Assembly: GCA_973895155.1 (NCBI GenBank)
Contig: OZ316892.1
Span: 16,296,357 to 16,360,356, forward strand
Length of the DNA stretch: 64,000 nt
Direction of reading: 5' to 3'
Origin: Marsupella aquatica
Taxonomy: Eukaryota; Plantae; Marchantiophyta
Below are positions 2,258-60,636 of this stretch, one piece after another (the first letter of the stretch is position 1; each line of letters starts with the position of its first letter). Under the pieces are notes generated by a model, which had not been told where the DNA came from, searched no databases, and saw only the letters and a list, made by a program, of their open reading frames with translations. A program made the translations under genes and the position numbers.

Positions 2258-2370
2258 TGTGGATATACAGTAAACTTGAAAAGCTAAGATTGAGTGCAAA
2301 TTTTTAAATTTTCTGGTCGCTAAAGTTTAAGTTCACTTAAACTTACATTTTTTACGCCTTTTAGTAAGAT

Positions 2371-2411
2371 ACGATCTTACGATCTTACGATCTTACGATT
2401 TACGAACTTAC
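2371..2411 (+). repeat. 8-bp CTTACGAT tandem array in the B LTR (second cluster at 5226-5302)
   Basis: acgatcttacgatcttacgatcttacgattt is read directly. The array is 24 bp longer in the 3' LTR (32764-32830). Confidence 0.9.
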
Positions 2412-2591
2412 GCGGTACTAGAAGATTACGCCGTTGCAAGACTAACGGGCGGAAAGTACACTATGAGCCGCATCGCGTGAAATCTTACGACCAGAGCGAA
2501 TCACTCTCTGCATGACTATTTCCGACGCTTACAAGCATCGCTCCGCTTCATCTGATCAGCATCCACCTCAAGATTTGTGAACCCAAGAGCT

Positions 2592-4709: not shown

Positions 4710-4724
4710 TCCTCCTACAACAAG

Positions 4725-5003
4725 ATGCTGAGTACAGAGATGTTCTTACAATTCTACCCATCTGTCTACGCCAACTCGTGCAATTGTTTAGATGTCATAG
4801 GCATCTTACGGGAAGCAATCAGAATCAACCAGTGCTTTTTGGAGAAAAGGATGTCACTTATGTATTGGGGAAGACAGATGAGATGTCTACCTTACATCCG
4901 GGATCAACCTCACTATGATGAAGTAAGGGAAGCTATTCGGACGCGCACTATTTGGAAAGTAGAAATTAGAGAACCAGAGGATATTCGACAACCAAAATAT
5001 TGA
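4725..5003 (+). CDS. In-frame downstream continuation of the B LTR ORF
   Basis: Same frame as 2592-4709, separated only by TGA 4707-4709. Conserved in the 3' LTR (35143-35421). Confidence 0.5.
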   Translation: MLSTEMFLQFYPSVYANSCNCLDVIGILREAIRINQCFLEKRMSLMYWGRQMRCLPYIRDQPHYDEVREAIRTRTIWKVEIREPEDIRQPKY

Positions 5004-6227
5004 AGCAGACCTGCAATTTTGTTAAGTGTCAGAGGCAGTTTCAGTTACTGTACCCCGCTCGATTTTATTAGACATGTTTTAAGATTCCAAAACTCATCAA
5101 GTCTTTTTCAGTAGACAGCTTATACATAGGAAAACACATTGGCAAAGTCTCAATCACTTTGGATTGTAGTTAGAAAGTTAGAAATACTTTAGTTTGCTGA
5201 GTTTAGGGTTATCGTTAAGTTTCCGCGACTACGACTTTACGATCTTACGATCTTATGATCTTACGAACCTACGCTTTTACAAATTACGATCTTACGATAC
5301 TACGGTAAACTTAACTTAGTTAGTTTTAGACCTTTTCATACTTAGTTTTCATTTTTGACTTTTTGAGGGTTTTGAAGGGTCATGACTCTTCAACCCCCAA
5401 GGGTTTTTCCTCGATGTTTTTCACTATAAGTACCTTCCACTTCTAATAAGCAGAAGTAAGTAAGTCAAACATGACTTGTCGCCCATTGGTGTTGTCCTTG
5501 TGATTTTGGACTTTTTGAAGTTCAGAGTAGGCAATCCTAGGAGGGACTTACCTCCTTCTTGTATTTTGGAACCCAAATACTTGAAGTAAAACCTCAGTTA
5601 TGAATCTCGTGAATTATAATGTCAGATTCCGCTTTGGTGACACATTGTAATCTCACAAGTTCTTAGAGTTAACCCATTGAGTTTAAGTTGCATTGGAAAT
5701 GATGTTTTCACCTTCATGTTACTTAGTACCATCTAAATGCTGAAGTATTTATCCTTTTAGATCTTGACTAAGTATCACTTAGGAAGAAAGGTCAAGACAT
5801 GTTGCCGGCATTTTAAAAGGATACTCTAGTATGCAGTTTAGATCTGAAAAGCTGTGTGGATTTGAATTCCCTTAAAGTCATTCCATTATTGCTTATGTCT
5901 AAGGAGTAACCTTGGTATATTCCAAACTCCCTTAAGCATACTCTAAGAGATTTTTCCTTGTGTTTTGTTAATTGCAACCTTTTGCTTAATTGATGGTTAT
6001 ATGATGTTGAGTTATCATCAAAAACTGCTCATCGCTGTGGAGCGATCTTCAAAGTACCTAATTAAAGTAGTCAAGATTGATTACTATGTGTGACACAACA
6101 GCTTAAAGCTTTATTTTTAGTTTATTACATCAAACCAACCCAATCTTGTTCTTAACGGGAACGAATACCGAGTTTAGAGACGTAAAAGAGTTCTTTTGGT
6201 TCTCTATAGCAAACTACATGAGATTTT

Positions 6228-7718: not shown

Positions 7719-8350
7719 AAGGGGAATGCATTAACACCCTTCCGTATCTGCACCGCTCTGGAAACACAAGGAAGTGTTACGATCTTATGTTCCTACGGCG
7801 TTATGGGTTTTACGAGCTTACGACCCTACTGCCTTACGATCCTACGGGTCTACGCTTTTACGAAGCCTTACTTGGTGGCAGGAAATATTCCGCACGCACA
7901 CGGATTGACTTCCGAGAGGTGCACCCTTACAACAGAAACGTCGCGCCTTCCCCAGAAGGACATAGAAGGAAAGGGCGCGACTCCTGAGCGTGCCTCTAGC
8001 GAAAGGGTATGAGCGGAACAGGACAGCCCTTTGCACCAAATCGGGGTTCTCTCTCTCACATTCCGACTACCCGAGATTAATTTCCTGAATATGAATCAGG
8101 GGAATCGTCAAAGCGCTTGGCAAGGCATCACTATGAGCTCCGAGAAATTCTCCGCAAAAGCAACCCAGGTCCTGTATTGAAGGACAGGAGAGGCTGGCAG
8201 AACATGCAATTCCGAGGGTGTTAGTTGACAAAGGACCTCGTGTTAACCTGATCTCGTTACGCTTGGTTCAAAATCTTCATCAAGGTCAAACCCTTCCAAC
8301 AAGCACTCACCTCAGGAAAACTAGGCTACTGAATTTAACTGGAATGTGGA

Positions 8351-13971: not shown

Positions 13972-14043
13972 CTGTGTTGCTTCAGAATTACTTTATTACA
14001 CATCCTTCCCCTCACTAATGTCCATGCAAACAATTCACATTAC

Positions 14044-25800: not shown

Positions 25801-27406
25801 AGAGTGTAGGACCTCCGCCAAGCCCAGGGCAGCAGCTCAATGAAACTCAATTTGCAACTCGTCTCACTCTCGCTCTTGCTGCAAAGAAAAAAAAGCGCAG
25901 GTCAAACTCCTTTGTGGCCTCAGTCCCCACCGCTTTCCCCAAGCTATGGACAACTACTAGCAGCTTGCGCTCACAGCATGACATCCAGGTCTTTAGCCAA
26001 CTGCACACTGGAAACCGAGAGAAGTGAGCGCAGTCACGCAAGGCCAAAAAAGACCAAAGTTGAGCCAAAGCAAAACTTTACTAATGTATTTATAGTCAAG
26101 CATGAGGGCAATCAGGTAAGCAGAAGACCACGCATTCCCGCAAAGAGTTGTAGGTTCTCGTCACTTCCTCGCCTCTGTATAGAAGGTCGATCGTTGTATC
26201 TCGGGTACCCAATGATAGTGGAGATGAATGCAAATAGGCCTCACCAATCGCCAGTCATCCGCGATAACCCTCCCGACAACCTTTGTAAACTCTGGACCCA
26301 GCCTCAACCTCACTCAGCACAGTAGCAAAACCTAGCAATGTCACCGCTGCAATGTTTTGTGCTTGCAATAAGCAGCCTCCTAAACCCACAGCTCCTTCCA
26401 CTGCCAACAAAATGCCAATGACTCAACCCTCATTCCAACCCCGAGCTCCCAATAGTAGCGAGAATCCAAGCCTTTGACTGCAAGCGCACAGCGGAGACAA
26501 GACACTCAAAGAAGCTCGATAGGATTCACTCAGGAAACCTAGGGCCCAAGCCTGACGATGTTCGGCTCTTCCTTCTCGCTCGCCAAATGCCGACACTCTG
26601 TGCGCGCGAAGGCACTCGTCGTTTCTCCCAAGGGTTTTGGCACAAGGGGTTTGGGAAAAACAGTCAATGGGCAAAGGCATTACCATGTAACACGTGGAAA
26701 CTTGTGGCATGGTCCATTAGGTGAAGGGGTTCATGAAGCCAATTGAGGGCAACACGCATTACAAGGAAGAGTAGGTAGAAGTGGTCTTGCGGCAAAGGCA
26801 TTGCATTGTACCCTTAACAAAAAGAGTCCCTAATATTGGGCTGTTCAATATTCCTAGATGAAGGGAGTTGCAACCATTTGAAATTGGCCAAGGGGTATAT
26901 TTGGAGACAGAATGCTGCCAAATGATGTTAGTGGGTTCAGTGTGTGTCTTTCTCTTTGTATGATGGAGTAACCAGTGGCCTGCATCATGGCGCGCGACTT
27001 GCAATTGCACCGACCTCCGGTACATATACCTATAATCATTTTGTCAATCATACATATAAAGTATATATGTATGGGTTGGATTTGGGATGTGGGTCGGCAT
27101 TATTATTTAATAAGAGCCAAAGTTATATTGTTCTTATATATGTGCAACCATGGTGATAAATATGGCAGAAAGCGCTATTATAATTGTGCTGAGTCACTTA
27201 TAAAACTTCAAAATAATTGCCTACACTAAGTTACAATTGCAACACTCCAAATAGTTATAGATATGACTCTCCAAAAATTCACCAAAACTTAGTTGAGAAG
27301 GTGTAACAAAGATGACACCAATAACCTTGGAGTCACTAATTTCCAAAGGTCTCAAGTAAGTCATGTAAGGGAGGGTCTCAGATAGGGCCGGTTTCTTCTA
27401 GTGAGT

Positions 27407-29714
27407 GTCAGCACGAGCCTTTGCACGGATTTCTAGCTTGTCCATGAAAAAGCATGGGTCGGTGAGAAAGTATGCTGATAGGTTACTAGACTTGGTTGAC
27501 AAGTACAACCCAAACACAGCCAAGTCTACTCAACGAGATTGGTTCATCAATGGGTTACCTTCTCGAATTGCTCACTACGTTAGAAGGGAAGGTGGCACTA
27601 CATTCGAAGAAGCCCAGGAAGCAGCCCAGAAATATGTAGATTCTGAGGTATCCGAAAAGAAGCGTGTAACGAAGGATCTGCGGAGAAATAAAAAGAAGGA
27701 TAGGAAGAAAAGGAAGAAGAGTAAATCTTCATTCAGTTCGGAGTCTGACGAGAGCGGAACTTCCAGTTCGGGTGAGACAAGTGAAGACTCGGGATCGAGT
27801 AGTACCACCAGCTCAAGTTCGAGTTTAGAGGATTTGAAAGGAAAAGGCAAAAGGGTGCAAAAGCCAAAGGTACCACAGAAAGCAAAGCAGCTTGACAAAA
27901 TAACGGACAACCTAACAAGCAAACTAAATAAACTATCAGTTAATGCGGCTATACTTAAACTACCGCGTAAACCCCCTCCTACAATCCGCAATAATGTGTG
28001 GTGCCCCAGATGTAACAATCAGGGACACTATCACCATGAGTGCCCCACTTTACAGAGAGCAGTAAACTACGGGGAAGAGGAGCAAACTTATGACTATGGG
28101 GATGTTTATGCGGTACCAGCCCCATTTTCTGGACAATATTTTCCTTCACCAACTGCTCCACCTCCCTATGCAGTACCAAAAACACCAGCACTAACTGCCT
28201 ATAATAGACCTGTTCCAAGACCACCAATGGGACCACCTGGTGGGTATCCACCTAGAGGAGCACCTCGGGAGAGAGGCACCTATTACAATTGTGGACAGAC
28301 TGGACATTATTCTCTTGAGTGCCCCTATCCCAAGAGAGAAGTGGGGTATACCCCTATTTGTGGAAATTGTGGGAAGGATGGACACTTACCAGTTGAATGC
28401 CCAAGCCCCCCTAAACCAAAAATGATAGTTAGATTTGCAAAAGAGCCCGTGAAAGAAGTCTCCAGAGCAGAGGACCTCAGAATGGTGTACACACAACAAG
28501 ATGAAGATCAATGCGGACGAATTACAGTGGAATCGGACGCAGATGACCTCCACAAAGTACACAATGTTTTCTCCCAATCATTAAGTGGAATTATTCCAGA
28601 TGTGGAACTACATGACTTGGTGCAAGATGAGGTTGTAGGTATGCCTCACAAGCGAGTCCAGGAAAGGGATAAAATTTTGGATATTTTTGCAACTACCCGT
28701 TCCAAAACTTCACACAAAACTTCAGCACACAAGGGTAAGGAGGAGACGAGAAGCAAAGACCTTAAGAAGCATAAAAAGCCTAGAGTACCAGCGGAAGAAG
28801 GAATCCCAAAGGAGAGTGATCCAGCATATGATAGGTACGACCCTAAATATTTCCAACCTGACATCTCCAATGAGATCCGCAACCAGATCCAAGACATAAC
28901 AGAAAAACTAGACCAGTACAAGGAACTAACATCTACCCTAGGGGCGGAAAAAAATAATATATCCGCATCTCAGAACGCTACAATGCCAAAACCAAAGGGG
29001 TATGACATTGTAGAGGTAGTCAAAAACCACCCAGCGAATATCACTGTGGGGGACTTATTGCAAGAAAACCCGGTGTATAGAAAGCAGCTAAAACTACTTC
29101 TTACCGGCAACAAGAGGAGAAAGAGACTACCTTCGGCTCAAGCCTTCCGTTTGGAATGGGAAGACAAGGGACCACCTGAAATAGAAGTGCAAATTTCAGG
29201 ATGCGTGTTAACTGATGTACCAGTGGATGGTGGGTCCAGCGTTAACATCATTACAGAGGATGCAGCATTTAAAATTGGGATAATCCAGTTTGAAAAGACC
29301 CTTCAGATCCTCCGAATGGCAGATCAGTCTAGAGTGGTACCTGTGGGTAAACTCACTCAAGTACCAACAGTCATTGGGGGACTAACCTTTCCATTAGACT
29401 ATGTAGTACTTCGACCAACAGGGCAGTCTACTTATCCAGTATTATTGGGTAGGCCGTGGCTGTATAAGGCCAAAGTCAAGGTAGACTGGGAGCGCAGACA
29501 GATGACTTTTGGGAAACCAAGAGTGACAATTAATTGGGCAGTGGACCCTCACCAAGGAGAAACCCAGACAGATACTGGGTACACCTCAGATTTTTCTGAC
29601 TCTTCCCTACAGGTAGAAGAGAGGGATTTTAACGTTGTTGATGTAGGATACCTGGACGAGGAAGAACCTGAGAGTGCCCCTTTCACTCAGGTTGACCACC
29701 ACGGATTGCTCTGA
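27407..29714 (+). CDS. gag: Gag C-terminal part with three CCHC knuckles plus aspartic protease of element B
   Basis: Knuckles CPRCNNQGHYHHEC, YYNCGQTGHYSLEC (first C lost) and CGNCGKDGHLPVEC. Protease motifs VDGGSSVNII and VLLGRPWL. Confidence 0.92.
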
Positions 29715-32622
29715 CGCCAGGAGAAGGAGGCCCAAGTGACGGGTCTGCCCGATGAACAGGAGAATTATCCCTGGCATTCCGTGGGCCAGGAACGTAAGGA
29801 AGGAATTGTAGACCCCCGTCAATGCCAGAAAATTGAAGTGGAACCAGGAAAGTTCATTAATATTAGCAACCACATCCAGGGAGAACTAAAGGAGAAGTAT
29901 ATCCAACTGCTGACTCAATACAAAGATGTCTTCGCATGGAGCCACCAGGACCTCAAAGGAATACCATCCCACCTAGGTGAGCACCGCATAGACTTGATTG
30001 AGGGAGCGGTCCCAGTACGGCAAAAGCAATACCGTTTAAACCCGAAGTATTCCAGCATGGTGAAGGATGAGTTAGATAAGCTTACAGCGGTTGGCTTCAT
30101 TTACCCTATCCTTAATAGTGATTGGGTCTCGCCCATTGTCATTGTACCAAAGAAAACAGGACCAGATGGGAAACCAAAAATCCGAGTGTGCCAGGACTTC
30201 CGGAAACTTAATGCTGCTACTAGGAAAGATCACTACCCTTTGCCCTTCATTGACATAATTCTAGACTCAGTGGTTTTGCATGAATTATACAGCTTCCTGG
30301 ATGGATATTCCGGCTATAATCAGGTTTCCATAAGGAGGGAGGATCAGGATAAAACTACTTTTACTACGGATTGGGGTACTTATGCCTTCAGAGTCATGCC
30401 ATTTGGACTATGCAATGCCCCTGGCACATTTCAGCGGATCATGATGATAATTTTCCAGGATTTTTTGAGAAAATTCTTGGAGATTTTTCTTGATGACTTC
30501 TGCGTATATGGATCATCCTTAGACCACCTGCAGCATTTAGAGCTCACCTTCCAGAGATGTCGTACCTCTCAACTTTGCCTTCACCCGGAAAAATGCTACA
30601 TTGGTATGAGAGAAGGAATCTTGTTGGGGCATGTCATATCTCAGAGAGGTATAGAAGTGGACGCAGAAAAGGTAAGGATCATTATGGCACTTACACCTCC
30701 TACCAACTTGAAAACACTTAGAGGATTTCTTGGCTACGTGGGTTACTATCGCAGGTTCATTCACAAATATGCGGATTTAGCTATGCCCTTAACCCACCTA
30801 CTGAAGAAAAACCAGGAGTACCAATGGACCTCGGAAAGGCAGCAAGCATTTGAGGTACTCAGGAATTATTTAACCAATGCTCCAGTTCTACAACCCCCAA
30901 ACTGGAATAAACCCTTCCATGTATATATTGATGCATCTGCATACTGTGTCGGGGCGGTGTTGAGCCAATTAGATGAAAATAAGAAAGATCACCCGATCTA
31001 TTACGCCAGCCGACAAATGAATAGTGCGGAAAAAAATTACTCCGTCACAGAACGAGAAGCCCTAGCTGTAGTCTTTTCTTGTAAAAAATTCCGACACTAC
31101 TTGCTAGGATATAAGACCATTTTTCATACGGACCACTCTTCCCTAAAATACTTGGTGAATCAGCCCGACTTAAGCGGAAGAATTGCTCGTTGGGTACTAC
31201 TTTTGCAAGAGTATGACTATGAGGTGCAGGTCAGACCAGGGAAACACCATGATAATGCAGACTTCTTATCTAGGTTGGAAGGACCTGAAAATGCAGAGGT
31301 ATTGTCTGACCAGTTTCCGGATGAACATCTATGGCACTTGGAGGGGGAAGAGTCTCAATATGCAGATATTGTACGAATGTTGACGGATGGCAGTTACCCC
31401 CCAGACCTAAATGCGGAAGAAAAGGCAGTGTTCCTTCATAAAGTAGGACCTTATACTCTGATCCGTGGCAACTTGTTTAAACTACTTCCTAACTAGAGAC
31501 TTCATCGGTGTTTGGAGGCAAGAGAAACCAATCAAGCCATTGCTGCGCTACACACCGAAACTGCAGGAGGGCACTATGCGGTTAACACTACAGTTCAAAA
31601 GATCAAAGATGCGGGATATTGGTGGCCCACAATGCACCGAGACACTTACAGATATATTCAGAGCTGTGACCCATGCCAGCGAGTGGGGAAACCCACAACT
31701 ACTTCTAAATGGCCACTCACTCCCATCTTACCACTCTCACCCTTCGAAAAATGGGGTATAGATTTCATTGGACCCATATCGCCTGCAGCAAGGAACAGTC
31801 GCAGCAGATACATTATCTTAGCCACGGATTATATGACAAAATGGGTCGAGGCTAAGCATACACGACGGAATGACGCTGCCACAGCTGCTAGCTTCCTATT
31901 TGAAAATATTATCACTCGTTATGGTTGCCCACTGGAGTTGGTAAGTGATAGAGGGTTACATTTTTTGAACACTACTATTGAACTCATCACTAGTAAGTAT
32001 TTGATTAAACATCGCAAATCCACTCCTTATAACCCAAGAGCTAATGGACTTACTGAACGTGCTAATGGAATAATGGGAAAGATACTCAACAAAATGGTTG
32101 AGGCACACAAAACGGATTGGGACTTGAAACTTCCATCTGCGCTGTGGGCCTACAGAACAGCTGAGAAGATCACCACTCTTCACACTCCCTTTTATATGGC
32201 ATTTGGTTTTAACAGTGTCACTCCCATTGAATTTGAAATCCCCACCGAGAGAATTGTTTCCCCACAAAGAACTATAGAACCTGAGAGTTTTTCTGCCCGC
32301 TTGGAAACCCTGGATATGTTGGAAGAGCACCGGTTGCTGGCTTTAGAGCAAACCCATCACCAACAAGAGAAAAGGAAGCTCCAATATGATAAGAAGCTAA
32401 AGACACCCACTTTACAGGAAGGAGATCTGGTCTTAGTATATGATTCAAGGTACATGTTCTTTCCTGGAAAACTACATACTCATTGGATTGGACCTTACAC
32501 AGTAAAGAAAGTATGGCCTAACGGATCCCTGACATTGCATACCCTAAGTGGAGACTCTGGACACGCGCATTAATGGCTTCCGAGTTAAGAAGTATTATCT
32601 TCCACCACCTGATGGCTTGTGA
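29715..32622 (+). pseudogene. pol: Pol of element B: RT, RNase H, integrase (in-frame stops at 29712 and 31494; frameshift near 32560)
   Basis: RT: DFRKLN, LDGYSGYNQ, MPFGLCNAP, FLDD. RNase H: DASAY, YYASR, EREAL, TDH. Integrase: H..GGHY, CDPCQ, WGIDFIG, SDRG, NGLTER, WIGPY. Confidence 0.95.
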
Positions 32623-32638
32623 GGATACGGCGCCGTTT

Positions 32639-32651
32639 GAAGGGAGGGCTA
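32639..32651 (+). promoter_or_regulatory. Polypurine tract of element B
   Basis: GAAGGGAGGGCTA immediately before the 3' LTR TG. Confidence 0.85.
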
Positions 32652-35600
32652 TGTGGATATACAGTAAACTTGAAAAGCTAAGATTAAGTGCAAATTTTTA
32701 AATTTTCTGGTCGCTAAATTTTAAGTTCACTTAAACTTACATTTTTTACGCCTTTTAGTAAGATACGATCTTATGATCTTACGATCTTACGATCTTACGA
32801 TCTTATTACCTTACGATTTATGAACTTACGCGGTACTAGAAGATTACGCCGTTGCAAGACTAACGGGCGGAAAGTACACTATGAGCCGCATCGCGTGAAA
32901 TCTTACGACCAGAGCGAATCACTCTCTGCATGACTATTTCCGATGCTTACAAGCATCGCTCCGCTTCATCTGATCAGCATCCACCTCAAGATTTGTGAAC
33001 CCGAGAGCTATGGCAACATTCGATTGTGATGAGGAATACCTCATTGATTCTGTGGCAATTCCAAAAGCGCTCGTCATCAGGCTCCCCAGGACCGAAGAGA
33101 GCTATGAATCATTACGCCAATCCTTGAGAGAGCTTGGACTGGAAAAATTATTACGACTACCATGGACTTCAGAGTTGGACACCTACCTGGAAGATTTTGT
33201 CAGAGGATCAATTGTCGCCTCACCTTCGCCTACTTCTATTCGAGGACGGCCCAGCAAATGGACCATAGATCACTTTGCGTATGCTTTTGGATGTTCTGCT
33301 GACAGAGAAGCGCTACTTTCGCCCAAGAATGATACATCAACTCCATACTTTTCAGGTACCCGGAATAAGAGAAATGGTTGGAATGTGAGTCAATGCAATC
33401 ATTTGGAGCTAAGAATTCTTTTGGAATTTTTGGTTCCTATTTTTCATCCCAAGAAACCAACTGTTTGCTCCATTTCTCTGGCCAATACCATCATCGCTGC
33501 GCACAGTGGTAGAGTAAAGGTCAATTGGGCTTTGGTATTTTTCAATGTTGTGAGGGATCAACTTCGGACATTAAGGGCGAATCAATCAACTCAACTGCAA
33601 AACTATCTAGCCCAGCTATACTCCGCTTTTGATTGCTCACTTCCTGAGGAGGTGATGGAGAGAGATTATCTTATGGAAGAAATCTCCAAGTTGTGGGAAC
33701 AAGATGAAATTATGCCTACTACAGCAGAAGAGGCAAACGTCATATCGCCAGCTTCTCCAGGCAGCCGGGCAAGTCTTCACAATTCAAGTCCTTCAGATGA
33801 GGTACCCATGGACCTAGAAGCACTTACTACAGATGCTGAGATGATAGACTACCCAGGGATCCCCTCACCACCCCTTTCCACAGGAATTGGGAAGTTTCCT
33901 ATTCGACTTGCACAGGACGACTCCAATCAGACCCTGATCAGTAAGGTGTGTGCTTTGCTCAACTGTGACTTTCATTCACTGTACGAGACCATTGAGCAAT
34001 TGCGCCATGACGCAGTGACATAGGTTCCTCCTTCTGCACTTTCATCTCCGGATCATGAGAATTCGCCATCATCTTCACCTCCAGCAGAAATTCAGCTCTC
34101 CACAGAGGAACTTTTTGCTGTTAAGACCGTGGCTCAAATCTCAGTTCCATCCCCTACAGACTTGAAGGAGACCTCACCTACAAATTCAGAGCCTCCTCCC
34201 TGCTCATCTGTAGAACATCACTCCTGCCTTAAGATTGTCCATGAGTTAACTACTATGTTAGGCTGCCGTTCAGAAGAAGTCACCTCCATAGTCGATGAAT
34301 TTCTTGATAAACCTGAACCTTCACGCTCCCCACTGCCATCCTCTCAGTTTCCCTATAGTCCTAATTCCAATTATGAGCCTACTGATAGTCTACCTCATAA
34401 ATCTTTGCACTCCACACAGCCCTTCTCTCAGCAAGGATTTCCCTTTTCTGAAGATTCTGATCCTCCATCCACACCAGAATACTTCTTTCCCTATGATATT
34501 CCAGTCTGTGACTCACCAGATCAGGGATTCGAAAGAGTTAATGCAGCCTTGCGATCTAATCCCAACCTTGTTGCAGTTGTCACTTCTTCTACCCAGACTC
34601 CTAGAAACGCTATCATCTATAAAATGGAGCCTAGAACACCAGAGCAACAAGTCCAGAAGTATGTCACCACTTGTAAGGTTATGCATGCCAATACACCGCC
34701 TATAAGTGAGTTCTGGAGGTTTTATTATTTGAAGAAAGCAGAGGCTAGCTACATTTTTGATCTCAGGATGATTGGTACCTCTTGCGTGGAGTTGGCTCAG
34801 TTTGATGAGTACTGGACAGATTCAGTCTACTTCCGACCTATACTGGCCGTTATGTTTCTACAAGGTGATGTTGAAGTTGATGACCCGGATTTAATCTTGG
34901 CCTATTTGGGAAATATAGCCGCTTATGCTTTAGATTTCTTACTGATTTTTCTAAAACAGAGCAACAAGTCTACTACCCCTGATCACTCATATATTCCCAC
35001 TGGACCCAAGGTTATCCTTACTTCAACCACTTCTTATGAAGACAAGCAGCGAGTATGGAACAACATCAGCACGCAGCAGCTAACAAACTACACTCGCTAC
35101 TTCCGGGATGTGCAGTGGAAATTATGATCCTCCTACAACAAGATGCTGAGTACAGAGATGTTCTTACAATTCTACCCATCTGTCTACGCCAACTCGTGCA
35201 ATTGTTTAGATGTCATAGGCATCTTACGGGAAGCAATCAGAATCAACCAGTGCTTTTTGGAGAAAAGGATGCCACTTATGTATTGGGGAAGACAGATGAG
35301 ATGTCTACCTTACATCCGGGATCAACCTCACTGTGATGAAGTAAGGGAAGCTATTCGGACGCGCACTATTTGGAAAGTAGAAATTAGAGAACCAGAGGAT
35401 ATTCGACAACCAAAAGATTGAAGCAGACCTGCAATTTTGTTAAGTGTCAGAGGCAGTTTCAGTTACTGTACCCCGCTCGATTTTATTAGACATGTTTTAA
35501 GATTCCAAAACTCATCAAGTCTTTTTCAGTAGACAACTTATACATAGGAAAACACATTGGCAAAGTCTCAATCACTCTGGATTGTAGTTAGAAAGTTAGA

Positions 35601-36636
35601 AATACTTTAGTTTGCTGAGTTTAGGGTTATTGTTAAGTTTCCGCGACTACGACTTTACGATCTTATGATCTTATGATCTTACGAACCTACGCTTTTACGA
35701 ATTACGATCTTACGATACTACGGTAAACTTAACTTAGTTAGTTTTAGACCTTTTCATACTTAGTTTTCATTTTTGACTTTTTGAGGGTTTTGAAGGGTCA
35801 TGACTCTTCAACCCCCAAGGGTTTTTCCTCGATGTTTTTCACTATAAGTACCTTCCACTTCTAATAAGCAGAAGTAAGTAAGTCAGACATGACTTGTCGC
35901 CCATTGGTGTTGTCCTTGTGATTTTGGACTTTTTGAAGTTCAGAGTAGGCAATCCTAGGAGGGACTTACCTCCTTCTTGTATTTTGGAACCCAAATACTT
36001 GAAGTAAAACCTCAGTTATGAATCTCGTGAATTATAATGTCAGATTCCGCTTTGGTGACACATTGTAATCTCACAAGTTCTTAGAGTTAACCCATTGAGT
36101 TTAAGTTGCATTGGAAATGATGTTTTCACCTTCATGTTACTTAGTACCATCTAAATGCTGAAATATTTATCCTTTTAGATCTTGACTAAGTATCACTTAG
36201 GAAGAAAGGTCAAGACATGTTGCCGGCATTTTAAAAGGATACTCTAGTATGCAGTTTAGATCTGAAAAGCTGTGTGGATTTGAATTCCCTTAAAGTCATT
36301 CCATTATTGCTTATGTCTAAGGAGTAACCTTGGTATATTCCAAACTCCCTTAAGCATACTCTAAGAGATTTTTCCTTGTGTTTTGTTAATTGCAACCTTT
36401 TGCTTAATTGATGGTTATATGATGTTGAGTTATCATCAAAAACTGCTCATCGCTGTGGAGCGATCTTCAAAGTACCTAATTAAAGTAGTCAAGATTGATT
36501 ACTATGTGTGACACAACAGCTTAAAGCTTTATTTTTAGTTTATTACATCAAACCAACCCAATCTTGTTCTTAACGGGAACGAATATCGAGTTTAGAGACG
36601 TAAAAGAGTTCTTTTGGTTCTCTATAGCAAACTACA
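32652..36636 (+). repeat. 3' LTR of element B (3985 bp)
   Basis: Near-identical to 2258-6218, followed by the TSD AAGAG. Confidence 0.95.
33010..35127 (+). pseudogene. 3'-LTR copy of the B LTR-encoded gene with a premature stop
   Basis: Near-identical protein to 2592-4709, with CAG>TAG at 34021-34023. Confidence 0.85.
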
Positions 36637-38266: not shown

Positions 38267-38336
38267 AAAACCCTTAGCATGAGGAAAAAAAGAGAAAATC
38301 AGCCTATTCATTAAAAGTGTATTATTATTTGATTTA

Positions 38337-42684: not shown

Positions 42685-42749
42685 ACTGAAAAAAATGGAT
42701 TAAAACCAACCTCATGCAAATTTTGATTCAGACTACTATCCTCCAATTT

Positions 42750-49668: not shown

Positions 49669-49885
49669 AATTCAGCCTTTGACTTTGTATTTATTCATAT
49701 CAATCTAAAATACTTCTCGGTCTCACAGAATGCGCTCAAGAATTAAAGTCTCCATATCCGTCTACACATTGTGAGGCTTCTAAAAATGGTATGTAGGTTA
49801 ATTTTCTTTTTTGTCAGCCATTGTCTTGTATTTTTGGACTGAGACAATCCTAATCCAAAGTTCACTTTTGGTCTTTTCTCTAAGA

Positions 49886-50944: not shown

Positions 50945-51200
50945 AGATCTGACTCATGTTAAGCGCATTAGATAGTAAAAATGGGTGTCAGCCCTGGATA
51001 TTCATTGTAAGTTTGGACACAATTGTATATAATTATTTTCACACATTATCAATCAATGGTCCTTGCCTGGGCTTCTTTGTGCGGAAATGTTTTTACAAGT
51101 ATGATCTCTATCCCATGGTTCTTTGTGAACTAATAAATAATATAATACTATTATAATTAATATAATATAATATAATATATTAATATAATACTAATAAGAT

Positions 51201-51289
51201 TTGGCCTATAAAGTGTACATTTAGGTATCAAAAAGTGTATATTTGGGCTTCGTAAAGTGTACATTTGGGGACATAAAAGTGTACATTTC
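51201..51289 (+). repeat. Right subterminal AAAGTGTACATTT repeats
   Basis: Four copies, in the same orientation as the left-end copies. Confidence 0.85.
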
Positions 51290-51337
51290 AGGACTGATTT
51301 GTGAACAAAAGAAAATACACTTTTAATGAATAGGCTG

Positions 51338-52190
51338 ATCCATCCTCGAAGGAACAAGTACATAATCCTGGCCACTGATTATGCAACTAAGTGGGTGGAG
51401 GCCAGGCCGACAATGAAGGATGATGCAATTACTACGGCTCAATTCATGTTTGAGCAGATCTTCACCAGGTATGGCGCACCACTAGAATTAGTTAGTGATA
51501 GAGGAACCCATTTTCTGAATGATATAATTAGTCGTTTAAATAAGCAGTATTTAGTTAGACATAGGCCTACTACTCCTTACCACCCAAAGGCAAATGGGTT
51601 GACAGAACGAGCCAATGGAATTGTAGGAAAGATATTAAATAAGACCGTAGCCCAGAACAAACTCAATTGGGATGATAAATTGTTTGCTGCTGTTTTTGCT
51701 TACAATTTAGCCTATAAATCCACTACCGGTCATACACCCTTTTTCTTAACATTTGGACAGGAAGCTCTGGTACCCATGCAACTTGAGATTCCTACATTTC
51801 AAGTTACAATTAAAGAGAGAGCCTCAGAGGAGGAAAGCCTAGAGGAGCGAGAATATAGATTAGAAGCTTTAGAAGAGGCCAGAATAATTTCAGCCGAGAG
51901 AGTAGAATATAGACTAAATACCATGAAGCAACAGTATGATAAAAAGTTGAAACCAGTTAGTATTCACACATGAGATCTTGTATTACTTTACAACAGTAGG
52001 TATAGTAGATTTATTGGTAAACTTTACACTCGCTAGTTAGGACCCTTCAGGGTAGCCATGAAGTTCTCCAATGGCTCCGTGCAATTGGCCAACATAACTA
52101 GAGAGGTGTCCCTAGTTCGCATTCACTATGACCGCCTCAAGATATACTATATGGACAAAGATGAAGTTGTTCACGAGGACGCTTCACAAT
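51338..52190 (+). pseudogene. pol: Integrase C-terminal fragment of a family-A Gypsy element
   Basis: YIILATDYATKWVEA, SDRGTHF, NGLTERAN, then a degenerate GPF tail with stops. Confidence 0.9.
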
Positions 52191-52191
52191 T

Positions 52192-52204
52192 AAGTGGGGA
52201 GCTA
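52192..52204 (+). promoter_or_regulatory. Polypurine tract of the family-A element
   Basis: AAGTGGGGAGCTA directly before TGTGATG; resembles the B PPT. Confidence 0.8.
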
Positions 52205-52578
52205 TGTGATGCCTAGCCAAGAATCACTAGGCCAGTTTAAATGGTAAAATCAGGAGTGTACCCTGGAAACACATTAGTATAGTAACAAAAACACGGAAAA
52301 TATAAACAATTAAGGGTGATTATGGAACCCGAGCCGAGGCCGGAAGTTAGGACATCGGGAGAGGGAACACGATTAGGGTTAGGGTGTGCTAAGTACAGGC
52401 AGCTATGGGTAACTAACAGGAAGGAAGACCAGGCAGGGGGGTAAGGATCGATCGCAAGGAATGGTGGCTCATTTGCAAGCACGAACTAAGCAGACGACTA
52501 TGTAAAGCAACTACTGTTAGCTGCTTAGGCAAGCACTTGGGGAGGGAGCAGATACCGACTATCAATTCAAGGAAGGGT

Positions 52579-55500
52579 ATGAGCAACGTCAATCAGGCTG
52601 CTCATTTTTTGGGATGCCTGTTAGAACGGGCAACTGAGTACATTGGGACCTACGAGGACGAAGAATCGGAGAGAGCCGCTCAAGAATGGCAGGAGCTTGC
52701 TCGATTGTGGGAGCTGCAAAACTTTGCCTTCTTAGGAGGAGAACTCATCACGGCTGAATTCCTGTGGACACCTACTGGCAACAAACTTGACGATCTTCTA
52801 TTTTGTGAGAACAGAGTAGTTGGCATCCGGGAAGCCATCAACCGCTGCAACAACATACACTGGGAGTTGAAGGGTAGCACGGAGGGGTGGACAAAGGCAA
52901 CTGTGCTAGGAGAAACATCCACGGCAGCAGCTATGAAGAGGAAAGGGAATGCCAACGAAGTGACCACCCCTGCAAAGAGAACGAGGTCGGTGGCACCAAG
53001 GAAGCCAGCCGAGCAAGGGAGCAGGAGGCAGGACGAAGCCGAAGAAGAGGAGGTTGACCCCATCAATGTCGTTCCAACAAGAGATGACACCTGGAAAGGT
53101 TGGGCGGCGACCCTCCCCGAGGAACTGCAACTACACTTTGCAGGTGAAGAGGATGCATGCTTTACGGCTATGCAGACTCGGAAGTACCAGGGCTTCATAG
53201 CCGGATCCAGCTTGGAAGCTTTTGTGAAATTACCATGGCTGAAGCCGATGGTGCCGGATTCAAACTTATTAGAATTTGTGGGATCATGGGAACCTGAGAC
53301 CCATTCCACAAGGGTCTATGGGAAGGATTTCTATCTCACTCCCCGGGTGATTGCCAAAGTGTTTGGCTTGCCGATGGGCAATAAGACCAAAGTAGATACT
53401 TGGAAGACCTTGCCAAACAAGGAGTTCCGATCATTTCCAGGGCCATCAACAAAGAATGGCTTCTTTCGGAACACCTGCACCAACCTGCACATAGGAGAGA
53501 TCATCGATTTCTTGCGGATAACCATGCACTGCAACTTGCCAAGGCCAAAGATTGGCAAGGCACAGGTCTACCTAGCGGAAAGGCCAGACCCAAGCCGGGA
53601 CTACAACGGGTACCTCCTCACCCAACTGAAGAAGATCTTGAAGGAGGAATAGCAGGCGATCGGCATGGGAAGCGTGTCCCGGCTTGGCTATCACATGCCG
53701 CTGTTGTGCCGGTATGCCCAAAGTCAGATCTTTGCCCCGGTACTTCCACTGCAAGCAAGGGCACCAGAGGAGGTTCCGGAATAGAGGCCGGCAACAAAGA
53801 AACCAAACCAGCTTGACAGACTTACAATCAAGCAGGTGTTTAGGCCGAGGACGGAGGACTTGCCGATGCAGCAACCAGGCATGCAGAAATTGTTGGAGAA
53901 GGAAAAGAGAACGACAATGGCAACGGCACAGGTACAGGACACTCCTTCAAAGGTCAGCCTAAGCCGACTCGATCATGAAGGAAAACCCCTTTACCGGAGC
54001 CAAGGAAAGAAGGAGGCCGGAACACGAGCCGGTTGTTTGAATATATGTAGGAGCCTCGAGTCTTGTAGCTGAGGGAAGGCAGCCTAAGGCTCCTGTTTAG
54101 GGGAAACAAAGGGAGAAGACAGCCTGGAAGCCAGAGGAGGAACTAGGACCTGCTAGCTATGATCGGCAAGACCAGGGGAACAGTCGGGGGAGCCGGTAGT
54201 CCAAGCAGTGGAGGAGGCGGTGGAGGACTACGGCAATGATGACTCCGGCTACGGGTCGGACCATCATGTCCCAGGAATAAGGACCTGTGGCCGTTTCATC
54301 CCCCGCTTCCAAGAGTAGTTCGAGGGGACCCCACCCAGCTGAACAGCCCCGAGTCCCGCCCGAGCTTTAACGGCATAAAACAGATGGCACAAGAGTTTCA
54401 AGAGCGACTCAGGGAGGGAGAGAGGGCAACCCTGGCTAGGGAGAAAGATTTACCAGGGGGAGAATGGCCAGAGGACATCAGGCGCCTTGCAGAAAAACAA
54501 AGTAGCCCTCCAGCCACGATAGAAGAAATCCGCAAGGCGGCTTGGGAACAAAGGCCACGATGGTTGATGCCGATGACTTCTACTCACTCCACCTATGCTA
54601 AAGAAAGAGCCATGGAATACGGGGAGATGTGTGGAGAACTTGCGCTCAGCATCTTTGGGGAGGAGTTGGAGCAGGGACCTTTTTCCACAGGGAGATGTTG
54701 GAAAAACGCCGATTAGAAGAAGCGGTGGCTTTGGAGAGAAGAAAGAAAGATGAGGTCATCCATCCACCTAGGGCAAGGGAAGCCAAGGTGGAAGACCTGA
54801 AGGCGGCCAAGAAAGCCCAAGATGAGCTATAGATTAAGCGGCATGAGCTAAACATCATGCAAGGGCAATTGGATACCGCTCAGTCTGATAATCAGATTAT
54901 CAAGGATAAACTGACTTGGACCCAGGGGAGTTGGCCGTTGCGGTCAAGGAAAGGGAGAAGTGGAAGCGGGAGCTGAGGGACGCAGAGGAGGCCCACATAG
55001 CAGCCAACAATCGGGCAAGGAAAGGGAGAAGTGGAAGCGGGAGCTGAGGGACGCAGAGGAGGCCCACATAGCAGCCAACAATCGGGCCATGGCGGAGACT
55101 CAGAGAAGGGAAAGGGCATTGAAGGGGGAACTCAAGGATATCCGCGGAGCCCTTGAGCAGAAGGAGGCCGAGTTAGGGAATCCTATCAAGGGATTATTGT
55201 GCTGCAGCAGAAGCTTGTATCCCTGACGGCCAGCTTCAAGGCCGACCTGCGTGAGAAAGACGACCAGCTCGATCAGACTTATGCCAAGATGAATAAAATG
55301 GAGTCTGAGGTCGTAGCGGAGCTCGACAAGGAGCTAAGAGCAACCCAAGAGGAGAGGGCTACCTTAAAGAAGGAATTGGAGGAAGCCCAAAAGGAGCTCG
55401 AGGAGGCGCGCAAGGACCTAGATGAAGTGCAGGAGGAGTTGGAGGAAAGCACGAGGAAGATGGAGAGCTTACAACGGCGAGCCGACAACCAAACGGAGCG

Positions 55501-55771
55501 GCTAAAGAAACAAGATGCAATATTTAAGTACTTGGCTTCATCAAGTCCAATTGGGGCAACCAAGTTGCCAGGAGTAGTACTGGCCGAAGGACAAGCTGCG
55601 ACACTTGCACCGGTGCCGGAGATAAGTGGCAAGGGAAAGGGACCAGCTGCCAAAATAGGGAAGAAGAAGAAGCGGAAACCTTCTGGGTCAGGGAGTAATG
55701 CGGCTTCTCAAGCCGTCGTGACAGAGGAGGTACAACCAGCGCCAACCTCAGGCACAATCACGGTGGATCCA
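52579..55771 (+). pseudogene. Family-A LTR ORF, copy 2, disrupted
   Basis: Starts at ATG 52579 (MSNVNQAAHFLG). PMD-like core, coiled coil and KKKKRK motif. Carries stops, frameshifts and a 71-bp duplication. Confidence 0.75.
54945..55087 (+). repeat. 71-bp tandem duplication
   Basis: caaggaaagggagaagtgg...aatcggg occurs at 54945 and 55016; single in the other two copies. Confidence 0.9.
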
Positions 55772-58700
55772 TGTGGTGCGTCCCCTGCCTCCCCAAACCC
55801 AAGAAACCCCCTTGCTCAAGCCGATTCCCGCAGGTTTCGTCCTTGGCAAGGCCTTTTCCGCGGCTTAGCGGCATGGGACGCTGCTAACTCTCCTTCAACT
55901 ACTTCTATTAACATTTTACACACATATACTAGACAGATCCTTCGTCGGGTCATGAGATACTTAGCCGGCCTATTCTAGTCCCTCCCTTGTATTCCTCTCC
56001 TGGTCTTCCATTAGGTATGTTTGGATTCCGCCGCCGGAATGATCCCCAATTGGCTTGGTTAAGCTGCTAAGACCTCTCTCAGCTCGACACATCCAACTCT
56101 CACTCCCCTGCTTACTTCTATTCCTCTATTAGTTGATGTGGGCACTCTTCACATAAGTTAATGCGACACACAAATAGCAAAATGACTCCTTCTGACTGAG
56201 TTATACCATGCACTTGCCATACAAACAGTACATCTCATACACAAGCTCTATGAACTAAGCCGTGAGGCCAACTCTATTCAGTTCTTAAGTATGAGGAAAC
56301 ATGAATATACACAAGGGTCATTGTATAACTAACCGAGAGCTTCTCTTACTACTTGATCCCAGCCCTGCTGGTGCAACTAGAAACTTGCTAAAGAAGAGGC
56401 CCTGAACTCCCCGCAGCCCAGGTACTTATCTTGGTTGTGGATCCGCCTAATTCCTTGCAGCGTAAGCCTAATCTACCTACTGTAATCTACCTATGTACAG
56501 CGAGGTAGGAGCACAAGTGTCGTCCACACCCGTGGATCCAAAATCCCACTAATCTAAGTGTCAGGGCCGTCTCCTGATCCTGATCCTAAGTCTAAACTTG
56601 GAGATCAGCGCCCACTCACGCCTCCTACCTCCACGTCCGCCCTCCCTAAAAGGGACGGTGCGCTTACACCGTCACGACACCGGTGGCTGGTCCTCAATGG
56701 ACGCCCCCAACGCTTCCTCCGCAGCCACTGCCGTTGGTCCGTCCTCTGGCAGATTACCTGCCCCTGACCGAGTCAACTCGATCTTCATCGGCCTGACTGG
56801 GTCCACCCTCGGCTTTGGCCTCAGCATCGGTCACGGCCTCTACTACGGCTACGGCCTCTGCTACGGCTACGGCCTCTAATACGGCTACGGCCTCCCCGAT
56901 ATGTTCTAGTGGAGGATCCGGTACCTCGGCAGCATTACTGGTTCTCCCGGCCTCGGCCTTGCCATCTCCACTTCCTAGGACTGGTGGATCCACCGCCGTG
57001 CCGATGCCGGAGGTTGGTGCCAGGTTTATCTTCTCGATCACAACGGCTTGAGAAGCCGTATTACTCCCAGACCTAGAAGGTTTCCGCTTCTTCTTCTTCC
57101 CTATTTCGACAGCCGGTTCCTTCCCCTTGCCACTTACCTCCGGCACGGGGGTGAGTGTTACGGCTTGTCCTTCGGCCAATACTACCCCTGGTAACTGGAT
57201 TCCCCCAATTGGAGTTGGACCTGATGAAGCCAAGCATTTAAATACTGCGGCTTGTGTCTTCAGCCGCTCCGTTTGGTTGTCGGCCCGCCGCTGTAGGTTC
57301 TCCATCTTCCTCGTGATTTCCTCCAACTCCTCCTGGGTCTCATCCAGGTCCTTGCGCGCCTCCTCCAGCTCCTTATTGGCTTCCTCCAATTCTTTTTTCA
57401 AGGTAGCCCTCTCCTCCTAGGTTGCTCTTAGCTCCTTGTCGAGCTCTGCTACGACCACAGACTCCATCTTATTCATCTTGGCATAAGTCTGGTCGAGCTG
57501 GTCGTCCTTTTCATGCAGGTCGGCCTTGAAGCTGGCCGTCAGGGACGCACGCTCCTGCTACAGCGCAATAATCCCTTGATAGGATTTCCCTAACTCTGCT
57601 TCCTTCTGCTCAAGGGCTCCGCGGATATCTTTGAGCTCTCCTTTCAACGCCCTCTCCCTTCTCTGGTTCTCCGCCATGGCCCGATTGTTGGTTGCTAAGT
57701 GGGCTTCCTCTGCATCCCTTAGCTCCCGCTTCCATTTCTCTCTTTCTTTGACTACGCCGGCCAACTCTCCTAGGGTCCGAGTCAGTTTATCTTTGATAAT
57801 CTGATTGTCAGACTTAGCGGTATCCAACTGCCCTTGCATGATGTTTAGCTCATGCCGCTTAATCCGCAACTCATCTTGGGCTTTCTTGGCCACCTGCAGG
57901 TCTTCCACCTTGGCTTCCTTCTCCCTAAGCCGCCGGATGACCTCGTCCTTCTTGCTTCTCTCCAAAGCCACCACTTCTTCTAATCGATGCTTTTCCAACA
58001 TCTCCCTTTGGAAAAAGGGTCCCTGCTCCAACTCCTCCCCAAAGATGCTGAGCGCCAGGTCCCCACACATCTCCCCGTACTCCATGGCTCTATCCTTAGC
58101 ATAGGTGGAGTAACTAGAAGTCATCGGCATCAACCACCGTGGCCTCTACTCCCAAGCCGTCTTGCGGATTTCTTCTACGGTGGCAAGAGGGTTGCTTCTT
58201 TTTTCGGCAAGCCGCCTGATGTCCTCCGGCCAATCTCCTCCTGGTAAATCCTTCTCCCTAGCCAGGGCTGCTCTCTCTTCCTCCCTAAGTCGCTCCTGAA
58301 ATTCTTGTGCCGTCTGCTTTATGCCGTCAAAGCTCGGGGGAGCAACCTCTGGTGGGGGAGACTCGGAGTTACTCTGTTGGGTGGGGTCCCCTCGAACTAC
58401 TCTTGGAAGCGTGGGGATAAATCGGCCACAGGTCCTTACTCCTGGAACATGATGATCCGACCCATAGCCGGAGTTATCATTGTTGTAGTCCTCCACCGCC
58501 TCCTCCACTACTTGGACTCACGGCTCCTCTGCCTCTGATTTGGGGCTTGAGGCTCCCACGTACATTCGCACTCCCGGCTTGTGTTCCGGCCTCAATCTCT
58601 CCTTGGTTCCGGTAAAGGGGTCTTCCCTTCTGAGTCGGCTTAGGTCGACTTTTGGGGCAGCGTGCTGTATCGGTGCCATTGCCAGAACTGTTCTCTTTTC

Positions 58701-60408
58701 CTTCTCCAGCAATTTCAGCAGATTTTGCATGCTTGGTTGCTGCATCGGCAAGTCTTCTTTCCTTGGCCTAAACACCTGCTCGATCGTCGGACTGTCGGGC
58801 TTGTTGGGCTTCTCTGGTGCCGGCCTCTGCTCTGGGACCTCCTCTGGTGCCCTTGCCGATAGGGGAAGTAATGGGGCAAAGATTTGACTTCTGGCATACC
58901 GGCACAACAGCGGCATGTGATAGCCAAGCCGGACACGCTTCCCATGCCGATCGCCTGCTATTCCTCCTTCAAGATCTTCTTCAGTTGGTTGAGGAGGTAC
59001 CCGTTGTAATCCCGGCTTGGGTCTGGCCTTTCTGCCAGGTAGACCTGAGCCTTGCCGATCTCTGCCCTCGGCAAGTTACAGTGCATGGTCACCCGCAAGA
59101 AATCGATCATCTCTCCGATGTGCGGGTTGGTGCAGGTGTTCCGGAAGAAGCCATTCTTCGTTGATGGTCCTGGGAACGACCGGAACTCCTTGTCAGGTAA
59201 GGTCTTCCTGGTATCAACCTTGGTCTTATTACCCATCGGCAAGCCAAACACCTCAGCAATCACCCGGGGAGTGAGATAAAAATCCTTCCCATACACCCTC
59301 GTGGAATTGGTCTCGAGTTCCCATGATCCCACGAATTCTAATAAGTCTGAGTCCGGCACCTCTGGCTTCAGCCATGGTAATCTTATGAAGGCTTCCAAGC
59401 CGGATCCGGCCATGAAGCCTTGATACTTCTTGGTTTGCATGGCCGTAAAGCATGCATCCTCCTCCCGTGCAAAGTGTAATTGCACTTCCTCCGGTAGGGT
59501 CGCCGCCCAGCCTTTCCAGGTGTCATCGTTTGTTGGAATGGCATTGATGGGATCGACCTCTTCCTCATCGGCTTCTCCCCTTGTCCTACTCTACTGCTCT
59601 GCTGGCTTCCTAGGTGTCGCCGACCTCGTTCTTTTTGCCGGGGTGGCCTCTTCGTTGTTGTTTCCTTTCCTCTTCATCTCGGCTGCCATGGATGTTTCTC
59701 CTAGCAAGGTTGCCTTCGTCCACCCCTCCGTGTTACCCTTCAACTCCCAGTGTAGGTCGTTGCAGCGATTGATGGCTTCCCGGATGCCGACGATTCTGTT
59801 TTCGCAAAACAGAAGGTCATCGAGCTGATTGGCAGTAGGAGTCCACAAGAACTTGGCCTTGATAAGTTCTCCTCCTAAGAAAGCCGTCTTCTGCAGTTCC
59901 TAGAGCCGAGCGAGCTCCTGCCATTCTCGAGCTGCTCTCTCCGATTCTTCATCCTCTCAAGTCCTGACGTACTCACCTGCCCGTTCGAACAGGCATCCCC
60001 AAAAATGTGCCGCTTGATTGACGTTGCTCATACCCTCCTTGAGTCGATCGTTGGTATCTATTCCCACCCCGAGTGCTTGCCTAAGCAGCTGACAGCATTT
60101 GGCCTCCCGTAGTCATCTGCCCAGTTCGTTCTTGCAAATGAGCCGCTATTCCTCGCGAGCGGTCCTTACCCCTCTCCTCCTCTGGTCTCCCCTCCCGTCG
60201 GTCACCCCTAGCCACCGACGCTTAGCGCACCCTAACCCTAATTGTGTTCTCTCCCCTGACGTCCTTACTTCTGGCCTCGGCCCGGTTTCCATAGTCACCC
60301 TTAATTGTTTATATTTTCCTTGTTTTTGTTCCTATACTAAGGTGTTTCCAGGGTACACTCCTGCTTTACCATGTAAACCGGCCTAGTGATTCCTAGCTAG
60401 GCATCACA
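55772..60408 (-). mobile_element. Family-A solo LTR (4637 bp) inserted in opposite orientation into a family-A LTR
   Basis: TG...CA termini and TSD ATCCA (55767-55771, 60409-60413). Confidence 0.95.
56672..60031 (-). pseudogene. Family-A LTR ORF, solo-LTR copy (~1100 codons, disrupted)
   Basis: ATG at 60031. Pieces 59591-59848, 58958-59485, 58518-58916, 58146-58508, 57558-58133 and 56754-57401 are separated mostly by single stops. Confidence 0.78.
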
Positions 60409-60636
60409 ATCCACCCCTAGAAGGTGGGGATGGTAAGGCCAAGGCCGGAACAATCAGTGATGAAGCCGGGGTATCGGATCCTCCACTAGAGCATGTCGGG
60501 GAGGCCGTAGCCGTATTAGAGGCCGTGGCCGATGCTGAGACCAAAGCTGAGGGTGGACTCAGTCAGGCCGATGGAGAGTTGACTCGGTCCGGGGCAGGTA
60601 ATCTGTCAAAGGACGGACCTACGGCAGTGGCTGCGG

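What the first reader, a model, noticed from the sequence alone, without database searches (positions are those of the whole stretch)
52205..60408. A second Gypsy family carries a homologous gene in its LTR
Seen: the family-A LTR (4.6 kb, delimited by PPT and TSD) holds a ~1100-codon ORF. Its core GLEAFIRLPW..LLEFV..RVYGK..IAEVFG..FPG..TKNGF..C.N..IDFL aligns by eye with family B GLEKLLRLPW..LEDFV..IRGR..FAYAFG..FSG..KRNGW..CNH..LEFL. I see no evident DNA similarity, and the C-termini differ. Known: PMD proteins (MAIN/MAIL1) are TE-derived and affect silencing. Inference: LTR-embedded PMD-like genes are an old, conserved trait of this lineage.
Basis: partly seen in the sequence, partly recalled or inferred. 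Interest (0 to 1): 0.75.

Follow-up and report, generated by a model that had tools for sequence, protein, structure and literature searches.

The report
VANC-like gene inside retrotransposon LTRs
Two distantly related jumping-gene families in what looks like plant DNA each carry a large, weakly related protein gene inside their long terminal repeats; one family's protein is predicted to fold like VANC21, a transposon protein that removes silencing marks, so the gene likely helps the element escape silencing.

Summary
Observation largely confirmed. Family A (LTR 4,637 bp) and family B (LTR 3,961 bp) are Gypsy elements with 52% identical integrases and no LTR DNA similarity. Each has a sense-strand gene starting 335-378 bp into the LTR (A about 1,090 codons, B 803), broken in every window copy. 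A's gene shows purifying selection (dN/dS 0.13-0.18 in its domains). A profile made only from database relatives of B finds the three A cores (14.5-21.4 bits; best shuffle 6.8); hhalign gave 91% with a broad alignment but 15% with a narrow one, and only about 100 residues match. Neither protein reaches Pfam PMD, Transposase_32 or ATHILA. A confident model of B's core has VANC21 as top match in two structure searches (Foldseek E 0.13; Z 6.2, 195 residues): a moderate match. Papers link PMD to VANC's fold. New here: family B carries same-strand 8-bp TTACGATC arrays in three non-coding places, the layout of VANC targets; A shows none clearly. Best reading: a DNA-binding anti-silencing or activating gene built into the LTR (0.5). 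Host lineage, expression and LTR placement in other species were not shown.

The parts
55772..60408 (-). Family-A solo LTR, 4,637 bp, TG...CA, nested antisense in another family-A LTR
   Evidence: 5-bp duplication ATCCA on both sides; 84-87% identity to the other A copies
56754..60031 (-). Family-A LTR gene in the solo copy, about 1,090 codons, broken by 8 stops and a frameshift: N-terminal region, core, linker, long coiled coil, low-complexity tail
   Evidence: dN/dS
59084..59401 (-). Core of the A protein that matches the family-B profile
   Evidence: 21.4 bits as a protein; window-scale E 2e-5 in six frames
52205..55771 (+). 5' part of a family-A 3' LTR (resumes 60414-60636 and about 63116-64000); gene starts at 52579, core 53212-53517; broken
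51340..52204 (+). Family-A integrase C-terminal part and purine tract; no chromodomain hit
   Evidence: Pfam rve 34.5 bits; 52% identical to the B integrase over 250 aa
1..2257 (+). Third family-A LTR copy, split by the B element (continues 36642-38266)
2258..6218 (+). Family-B 5' LTR; followed by a primer-binding-like site; element ends at 36636 with duplication AAGAG
   Evidence: 98.7% identical to the 3' LTR
2592..5003 (+). Family-B LTR gene, 803 codons, one internal stop at 4707; core domain 2637-3281 is intact
   Evidence: model pLDDT 94.6
32652..36636 (+). Family-B 3' LTR with the second gene copy (33010-35421; stops at 34021 and 35125)
27404..32651 (+). Family-B gag-pol (gag begins about 8339 and is split by a CACTA insertion 9337-27403)
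   Evidence: Pfam zf-CCHC, RVT_1, RT_RNaseH, Integrase_H2C2, rve
2352..2433 (+). 8-bp TTACGATC array upstream of the B gene (also 32745-32830)
   Evidence: unit number varies between copies
5229..5305 (+). Second array, downstream of the B gene (also 35647-35725)
7777..7865 (+). Third array, in the internal non-coding region before gag; units diverged but 8 of 11 keep YTACG

Best explanation
Both Gypsy families carry a large accessory gene inside the LTR whose cores are related, and the protein likely is a DNA-binding factor of the VANC/PMD fold (predicted from family B's model only) that would bind short repeats in its own element and keep it from being silenced. Shown: position in the LTR, selection on A's gene, A-B similarity over about 100 residues, B's three same-strand TTACGATC arrays. 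Predicted: the fold. Inferred: the gene lies in U3, is read from the 3' end of the element's RNA or from a promoter at the LTR's left edge; the core binds the arrays; the acidic, basic and coiled-coil parts oligomerise and recruit host factors; silencing drops locally and the LTR promoter fires. As gene and two arrays lie within one LTR, every solo LTR would be a self-contained module acting in trans on its family.
For: LTR limits, TSDs. dN/dS 0.13-0.18 in frame. Profile of 107 B relatives, no window sequence in it, hits only the 2 B and 3 A cores plus one -1.2-bit stretch in six frames of 64 kb; A scores 21.4, 17.0, 14.5 bits, best of 2,000 shuffles 6.8; repeated with 102 non-redundant relatives: 18.8, 15.2, 12.1 bits, best shuffles 4.0-6.8; hhalign 91.4%, E 9e-7. 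B model pLDDT 94.6; VANC21 first in Foldseek (E 0.13, prob 0.69, TM 0.45; next E 2.1, prob 0.01) and the only Z>=5 of 48,161 chains (Z 6.2, rmsd 4.3, 195 of 234 residues). Atlas leads: Transposase_32/ATHILA for both cores. All 12 exact TTACGATC in the window lie in B non-coding DNA on one strand; TTACG 19 seen against 2.5 expected; unit number varies. VANC targets are dense same-orientation tandem motifs in non-coding parts (PMC5735166); PMD resembles VANC's DUF1985.
Against: The structural match is moderate: Foldseek E 0.13, 10-11% identity, Z 6.2, below the Z of 8 the tool calls commonplace. A's fold was not obtained (pLDDT 33). hhalign against a narrower 40-sequence alignment gave only 14.8%. 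The N- and C-terminal thirds of the domain do not score in A (32-524 of 1,000 shuffles reach the score). No Pfam hit to PMD, DUF1985, Transposase_32 or ATHILA. A's non-coding LTR parts show no clear motif array (top z 5.7-6.4, like background). Tandem repeats are common in long plant LTRs and inflate motif counts. Contigs about ten times deeper share only the last 700 bp of B's LTR and leave it at about 5713, so abundant relatives may lack this gene. No binding, expression or methylation data.
Confidence: 0.5

Rival explanations
1. The proteins are distant members of the ATHILA/Transposase_32 accessory-ORF group and serve another step of the cycle (RNA binding or export, particle assembly, nuclear import, choice of insertion site); the arrays are ordinary host-factor sites or neutral repeats.
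For: Atlas nearest clusters are ATHILA and Transposase_32, not DUF1985; these domains sit in Athila extra ORFs of unknown function (PMC6317226, PMC11728184); A lacks a clear array.
Against: Best solved-structure match is a DNA-bound anti-silencing protein; the same motif is kept in three separate non-coding places on one strand, with a conserved core in otherwise diverged units.
Confidence: 0.27
2. The cores are homologous, but each family moved a gene from the pol-to-3'LTR region into U3 on its own, so LTR placement is convergent and not an old shared trait.
For: No DNA similarity, different N- and C-terminal parts; extra ORFs are usually internal (PMC7264820); relatives sharing only B's LTR end exist; no context for any relative.
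Against: Both genes start at nearly the same offset (335 and 378 bp) in the same orientation, and both LTRs follow the integrase directly. This rival concerns history and can hold together with the best explanation.
Confidence: 0.15
3. The A-B resemblance is chance; A's gene is unrelated to B's family.
For: BLASTP E 0.009 only; 14.8% in one hhalign; flanks do not score; 21 bits would not be significant in a library of billions; the pair was picked by eye.
Against: 0 of 1,000-2,000 shuffles come near; A cores are the only other hits in the window; conserved family columns (L.LPW, F, K.G, C, FL) are matched in order; the Atlas independently sends A to ATHILA/Transposase_32 (score 0.87, a lead only).
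Confidence: 0.08

Closest known systems
VANC21 / DUF1985 anti-silencing proteins of Arabidopsis VANDAL (Mutator-like) DNA transposons (PMC5735166; PDB 9LNJ, 9LNK)
   Same: Predicted fold of the B core over 195 residues; transposon-encoded accessory gene with a coiled coil (A); dense same-orientation 8-bp tandem motifs in several non-coding parts of the element, with variable unit number (B).
   Different: Here a retrotransposon, an intron-free gene inside the LTR, 11% identity, no DUF1985 hit; VANC is described as dicot-specific (PMC13547354); activity untested.
Plant mobile domain (PF10536): MAIN/MAIL1 and Gypsy-encoded PMD-A (PMC5418596; Ogre extra ORFs, PMC6317226)
   Same: Gypsy-borne accessory domain; linked through the VANC fold according to two papers.
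   Different: No PF10536 hit; no direct structure comparison possible; the passages read describe PMDs from angiosperms and do not place them in LTRs.
ATHILA ORF-1 (PF03078) and Transposase_32 (PF20167) extra ORFs of Athila elements
   Same: Nearest Atlas clusters for both cores; non-chromovirus-like Gypsy host element; domain plus coiled coil.
   Different: No Pfam hit; reviews place plant extra ORFs in the internal region, not in the LTR (PMC7264820).
LTR-encoded retroviral genes (MMTV sag; nef and foamy-virus accessory genes reaching into U3; recalled, only MMTV seen in a search listing)
   Same: Gene position in U3.
   Different: Unrelated proteins, far shorter, animal viruses.

Membership tests
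Gene inside a true LTR | Gene lies between TG...CA ends, duplicated at both ends of an element or in a solo LTR with target duplication | tested here: met
   B: two LTRs 98.7% alike, TSD AAGAG; A: solo LTR with TSD ATCCA and a 3' LTR after the purine tract
PMD (PF10536) | Pfam score above the curated cut-off | tested here: not met
   No hit at E 1 in 37 of 42 window ORFs scanned, none at E 0.01 in 66 of 150 listed relatives
PMD (PF10536) | Same fold as MAIN/MAIL1 | not testable with these tools
   No AlphaFold DB library; only the indirect link through VANC21
Transposase_32 (PF20167) / ATHILA (PF03078) | Pfam score above the cut-off | tested here: not met
Transposase_32 (PF20167) / ATHILA (PF03078) | Remote likeness by language-model features | tested here: inconclusive
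   B 0.90 (154-157 shared features), A 0.85-0.87; leads only
VANC (DUF1985) | VANC21 fold | tested here: inconclusive
   Top and whole-domain match for B in two searches but E 0.13 and Z 6.2; A model unusable
VANC (DUF1985) | Encoded by a VANDAL/Mutator DNA transposon, DUF1985 Pfam hit | tested here: not met
   Gypsy LTR; no DUF1985 hit
VANC-type system | Dense same-orientation short motifs in tandem repeats in non-coding parts of the element | tested here: met
   Family B: three arrays, 12 of 12 exact matches on one strand. Not seen clearly in family A, of which only LTRs and an integrase part are in the window
VANC-type system | Sequence-specific DNA binding and loss of methylation | not testable with these tools
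   needs bench work
Athila clade of Ty3/Gypsy | No chromodomain, no additional RNase H, non-Met primer | tested here: inconclusive
   Pfam shows neither chromodomain nor second RNase H in B; the primer site resembles the tRNA-Asp type (recalled)
Athila clade of Ty3/Gypsy | Placement on an RT tree | not tested

The most novel reading that the evidence does not exclude
A retrotransposon anti-silencing module packed entirely in the LTR: a VANC-fold protein plus its own tandem target sites, spread also by solo LTRs, in an old non-flowering-plant Gypsy lineage. The PMD/VANC fold would then be an ancient retrotransposon counter-defence, later tamed as MAIN/MAIL1 and reused by VANDAL, and the many ATHILA/Transposase_32 extra ORFs may do the same job.
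Probability: 0.3. Interest if true: 0.88.

Novelty: new variant of a known kind. Interest (0 to 1): 0.67.

Why it matters
The role of extra ORFs in plant Gypsy elements is open (PMC7264820), as is whether PMD began in retrotransposons or in host genes (PMC5418596); a 2026 paper derives VANC from captured MAIN-like genes (PMC13547354). A Pfam-less family of at least 307 sequence clusters with a predicted VANC-like fold, sitting in LTRs beside candidate target arrays, gives a protein and a motif that can be tested directly. It would also be missed by surveys that look only at internal regions.

Tried and rejected
No whole genome was held. Word-based protein searches with the B and A cores found nothing; PDB sequence searches found no relative of the core (only coiled-coil noise). 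Scans for DNA around relatives were empty: metagenome contigs with the A core and with a 20-sequence relative alignment, viral contigs. Cluster look-ups of 30 relatives gave no organism and no name beyond 'hypothetical protein', so the host lineage stays unknown. No RNA holder listed. The A-core fold from 3 sequences was unusable; its helix spacing resembles B's but was given no weight. The viral fold library gave nothing; the 'pdb_via' second look never ran. An env-like membrane role was not favoured: A has no hydrophobic 19-residue stretch (maximum 0.72), B one of 1.78 in its C-terminal part. The tail segment was set in the wrong frame; its true-frame value (about 1.1) suggests no constraint and was not used. 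The VANC21 structure paper and the 2022 EMBO J paper were not held, so DNA-contact residues could not be compared. Depths were not taken as copy numbers.

Full report
Anatomy. The window is a nest of transposons. Family B is a whole Gypsy element, 2258-36636, with LTRs of about 4 kb that are 98.7% alike, a 5-bp target duplication, a primer-binding-like site, gag split by an 18-kb CACTA insertion, and gag-pol at 27404-32573. Family A is present as three LTR copies: one split by B (1-2257 and 36642-38266), a 3' LTR that starts at 52205 after an integrase and purine tract, and a solo LTR (55772-60408, minus strand, duplication ATCCA) nested in it. The A and B integrases are 52% identical over 250 residues; the LTRs share no DNA similarity.

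The genes. Both LTRs hold a sense-strand gene that starts 378 bp (A) or 335 bp (B) from the LTR's left end. A's gene spans about 1,090 codons but is broken in all three copies. Pairwise dN/dS between copies is 0.16 (N-terminal part), 0.13 and 0.13 (core), 0.32 and 0.39 (linker), 0.15 and 0.18 (coiled coil), against 0.55-1.82 in shifted frames: the gene was under selection while the family spread. B's gene has 803 codons; both window copies share a stop at codon 706, which the contigs of runs X1 and X2 covering that place do not carry, and an 808-aa database protein is 49% identical over the whole length. Long X1 contigs cover the gene without gaps at 0.5% difference, and the two B LTRs differ at 27 of 3,960 positions, so B is young.

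Are the cores related? BLASTP gives E 0.009. The B core found 307 clusters at E up to 0.001 (150 listed). A profile from the 107 of these that cover 130 or more query positions, with no window sequence, hit in six frames of the window the two B cores and then the three A cores; as proteins the A cores scored 21.4, 17.0 and 14.5 bits, the best of 2,000 shuffles 6.8. A second profile (102 non-redundant of 294 cores) gave 18.8, 15.2 and 12.1 bits. hhalign gave 91.4% against the 108-sequence alignment that includes B but 14.8% against a narrower one of 40. Only profile positions 37-138 score; the flanking thirds do not. I put homology at about 0.9.

What is the domain? Pfam names neither protein (37 of 42 ORFs scanned) nor 66 of the 150 relatives. 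The ESM Atlas returns Transposase_32 and ATHILA clusters for both cores, as leads. The B core folds confidently (pLDDT 94.6). Foldseek ranks VANC21 bound to DNA first (E 0.13, probability 0.69, TM 0.45; the next row E 2.1), and the independent aligner gives VANC21 the only Z of 5 or more among 48,161 chains (Z 6.2, rmsd 4.3, 195 residues). A's own fold could not be obtained. In 23 long relatives the domain starts within the first 100 residues and those I read are followed by acidic, basic and coiled-coil-like stretches.

Candidate targets. VANC proteins bind 8-9-bp motifs arrayed densely, in one orientation, in tandem repeats in non-coding parts of their element (PMC5735166, Results read in full). 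Family B has this layout: arrays of period 8 before the gene, after the gene, and before gag. All 12 exact TTACGATC of the window lie there on one strand; TTACG occurs 19 times against 2.5 expected; in the third array 8 of 11 units keep YTACG while the other bases vary; unit number differs between copies. Tandem copies inflate such counts, and long plant LTR elements often hold tandem repeats (PMC6317226). A's non-coding LTR parts show nothing comparable.

Mechanism. Most likely (0.5) the protein binds its family's repeats and relieves silencing or activates the LTR, and solo LTRs keep supplying it. Binding, expression and effect are inferred. Rivals: another accessory role (0.27), convergent LTR placement (0.15, compatible with the first), chance similarity (0.08). 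Against generality: deeper contigs share only the last 700 bp of B's LTR, and no DNA around any relative could be fetched. The host is taken as a plant from its CACTA and Gypsy content; 'non-seed' was not shown.

Literature. Eight searches listed no plant Gypsy gene inside an LTR and no VANC-like retrotransposon system; six phrasings of 'ORF in the LTR' gave one MMTV review (listing only). Read: PMC7264820 parts 1-2 of 3 (extra ORFs placed in the internal region); passages of PMC6317226, PMC5418596, PMC11963269, PMC11728184, PMC13547354, PMC12859917, PMC12844716, PMC13468544, PMC3485330 (Retrosat2 ORF0 lies upstream of gag-pol) and the bioRxiv preprint; part 1 of PMC10508981. The VANC21 structure paper, Sasaki 2022 and Steinbauerova 2011 were not seen, nor any supplements; they may already note such relatives. 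Two earlier scan notes on genes in Gypsy LTRs of other genomes are untested parallels.

Verdict. A real feature; a new variant of known kinds (Gypsy extra ORF; works like VANC, not filed as PMD or VANC). Interest 0.67.

Noticed in passing
window 38298-51339: A 13-kb unit with inverted ends and 22-bp subterminal repeats carries a DUF7869 ORF on the minus strand and, on the plus strand, ORFs with an N6/N4 DNA methylase hit (47284-49668, 28.1 bits, cut-off 26.7, short stretch) and a NIF phosphatase hit (49802-50944); looks like a DNA transposon with chromatin-type cargo.
   Followed up: no
window 9337-27403: An 18-kb CACTA element (3-bp duplication AGT) in B's gag carries BRCT and PHD-like ORFs at 18209-20381 besides its transposase.
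   Followed up: no
window 6550-7419: Family B has a further unnamed ORF (289 codons stop to stop) between the primer site and gag, so it carries two extra genes.
   Followed up: no
window 4100-5003: The C-terminal part of B's LTR protein is strongly conserved with P0001's cluster only, has no Pfam hit and was not folded.
   Followed up: partly
window 5516-6247: Contigs about ten times deeper than over the gene share only this end of B's LTR, pointing to a more abundant related family with a different U3.
   Followed up: no
window 56830-56895: The tail of A's gene holds a variable 6/18-bp repeat whose opposite strand reads as TACGG units, like B's motif core; may be chance.
   Followed up: no
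window 60637-63115: An unrelated 2.5-kb insertion without Pfam hits interrupts the plus-strand A LTR.
   Followed up: no
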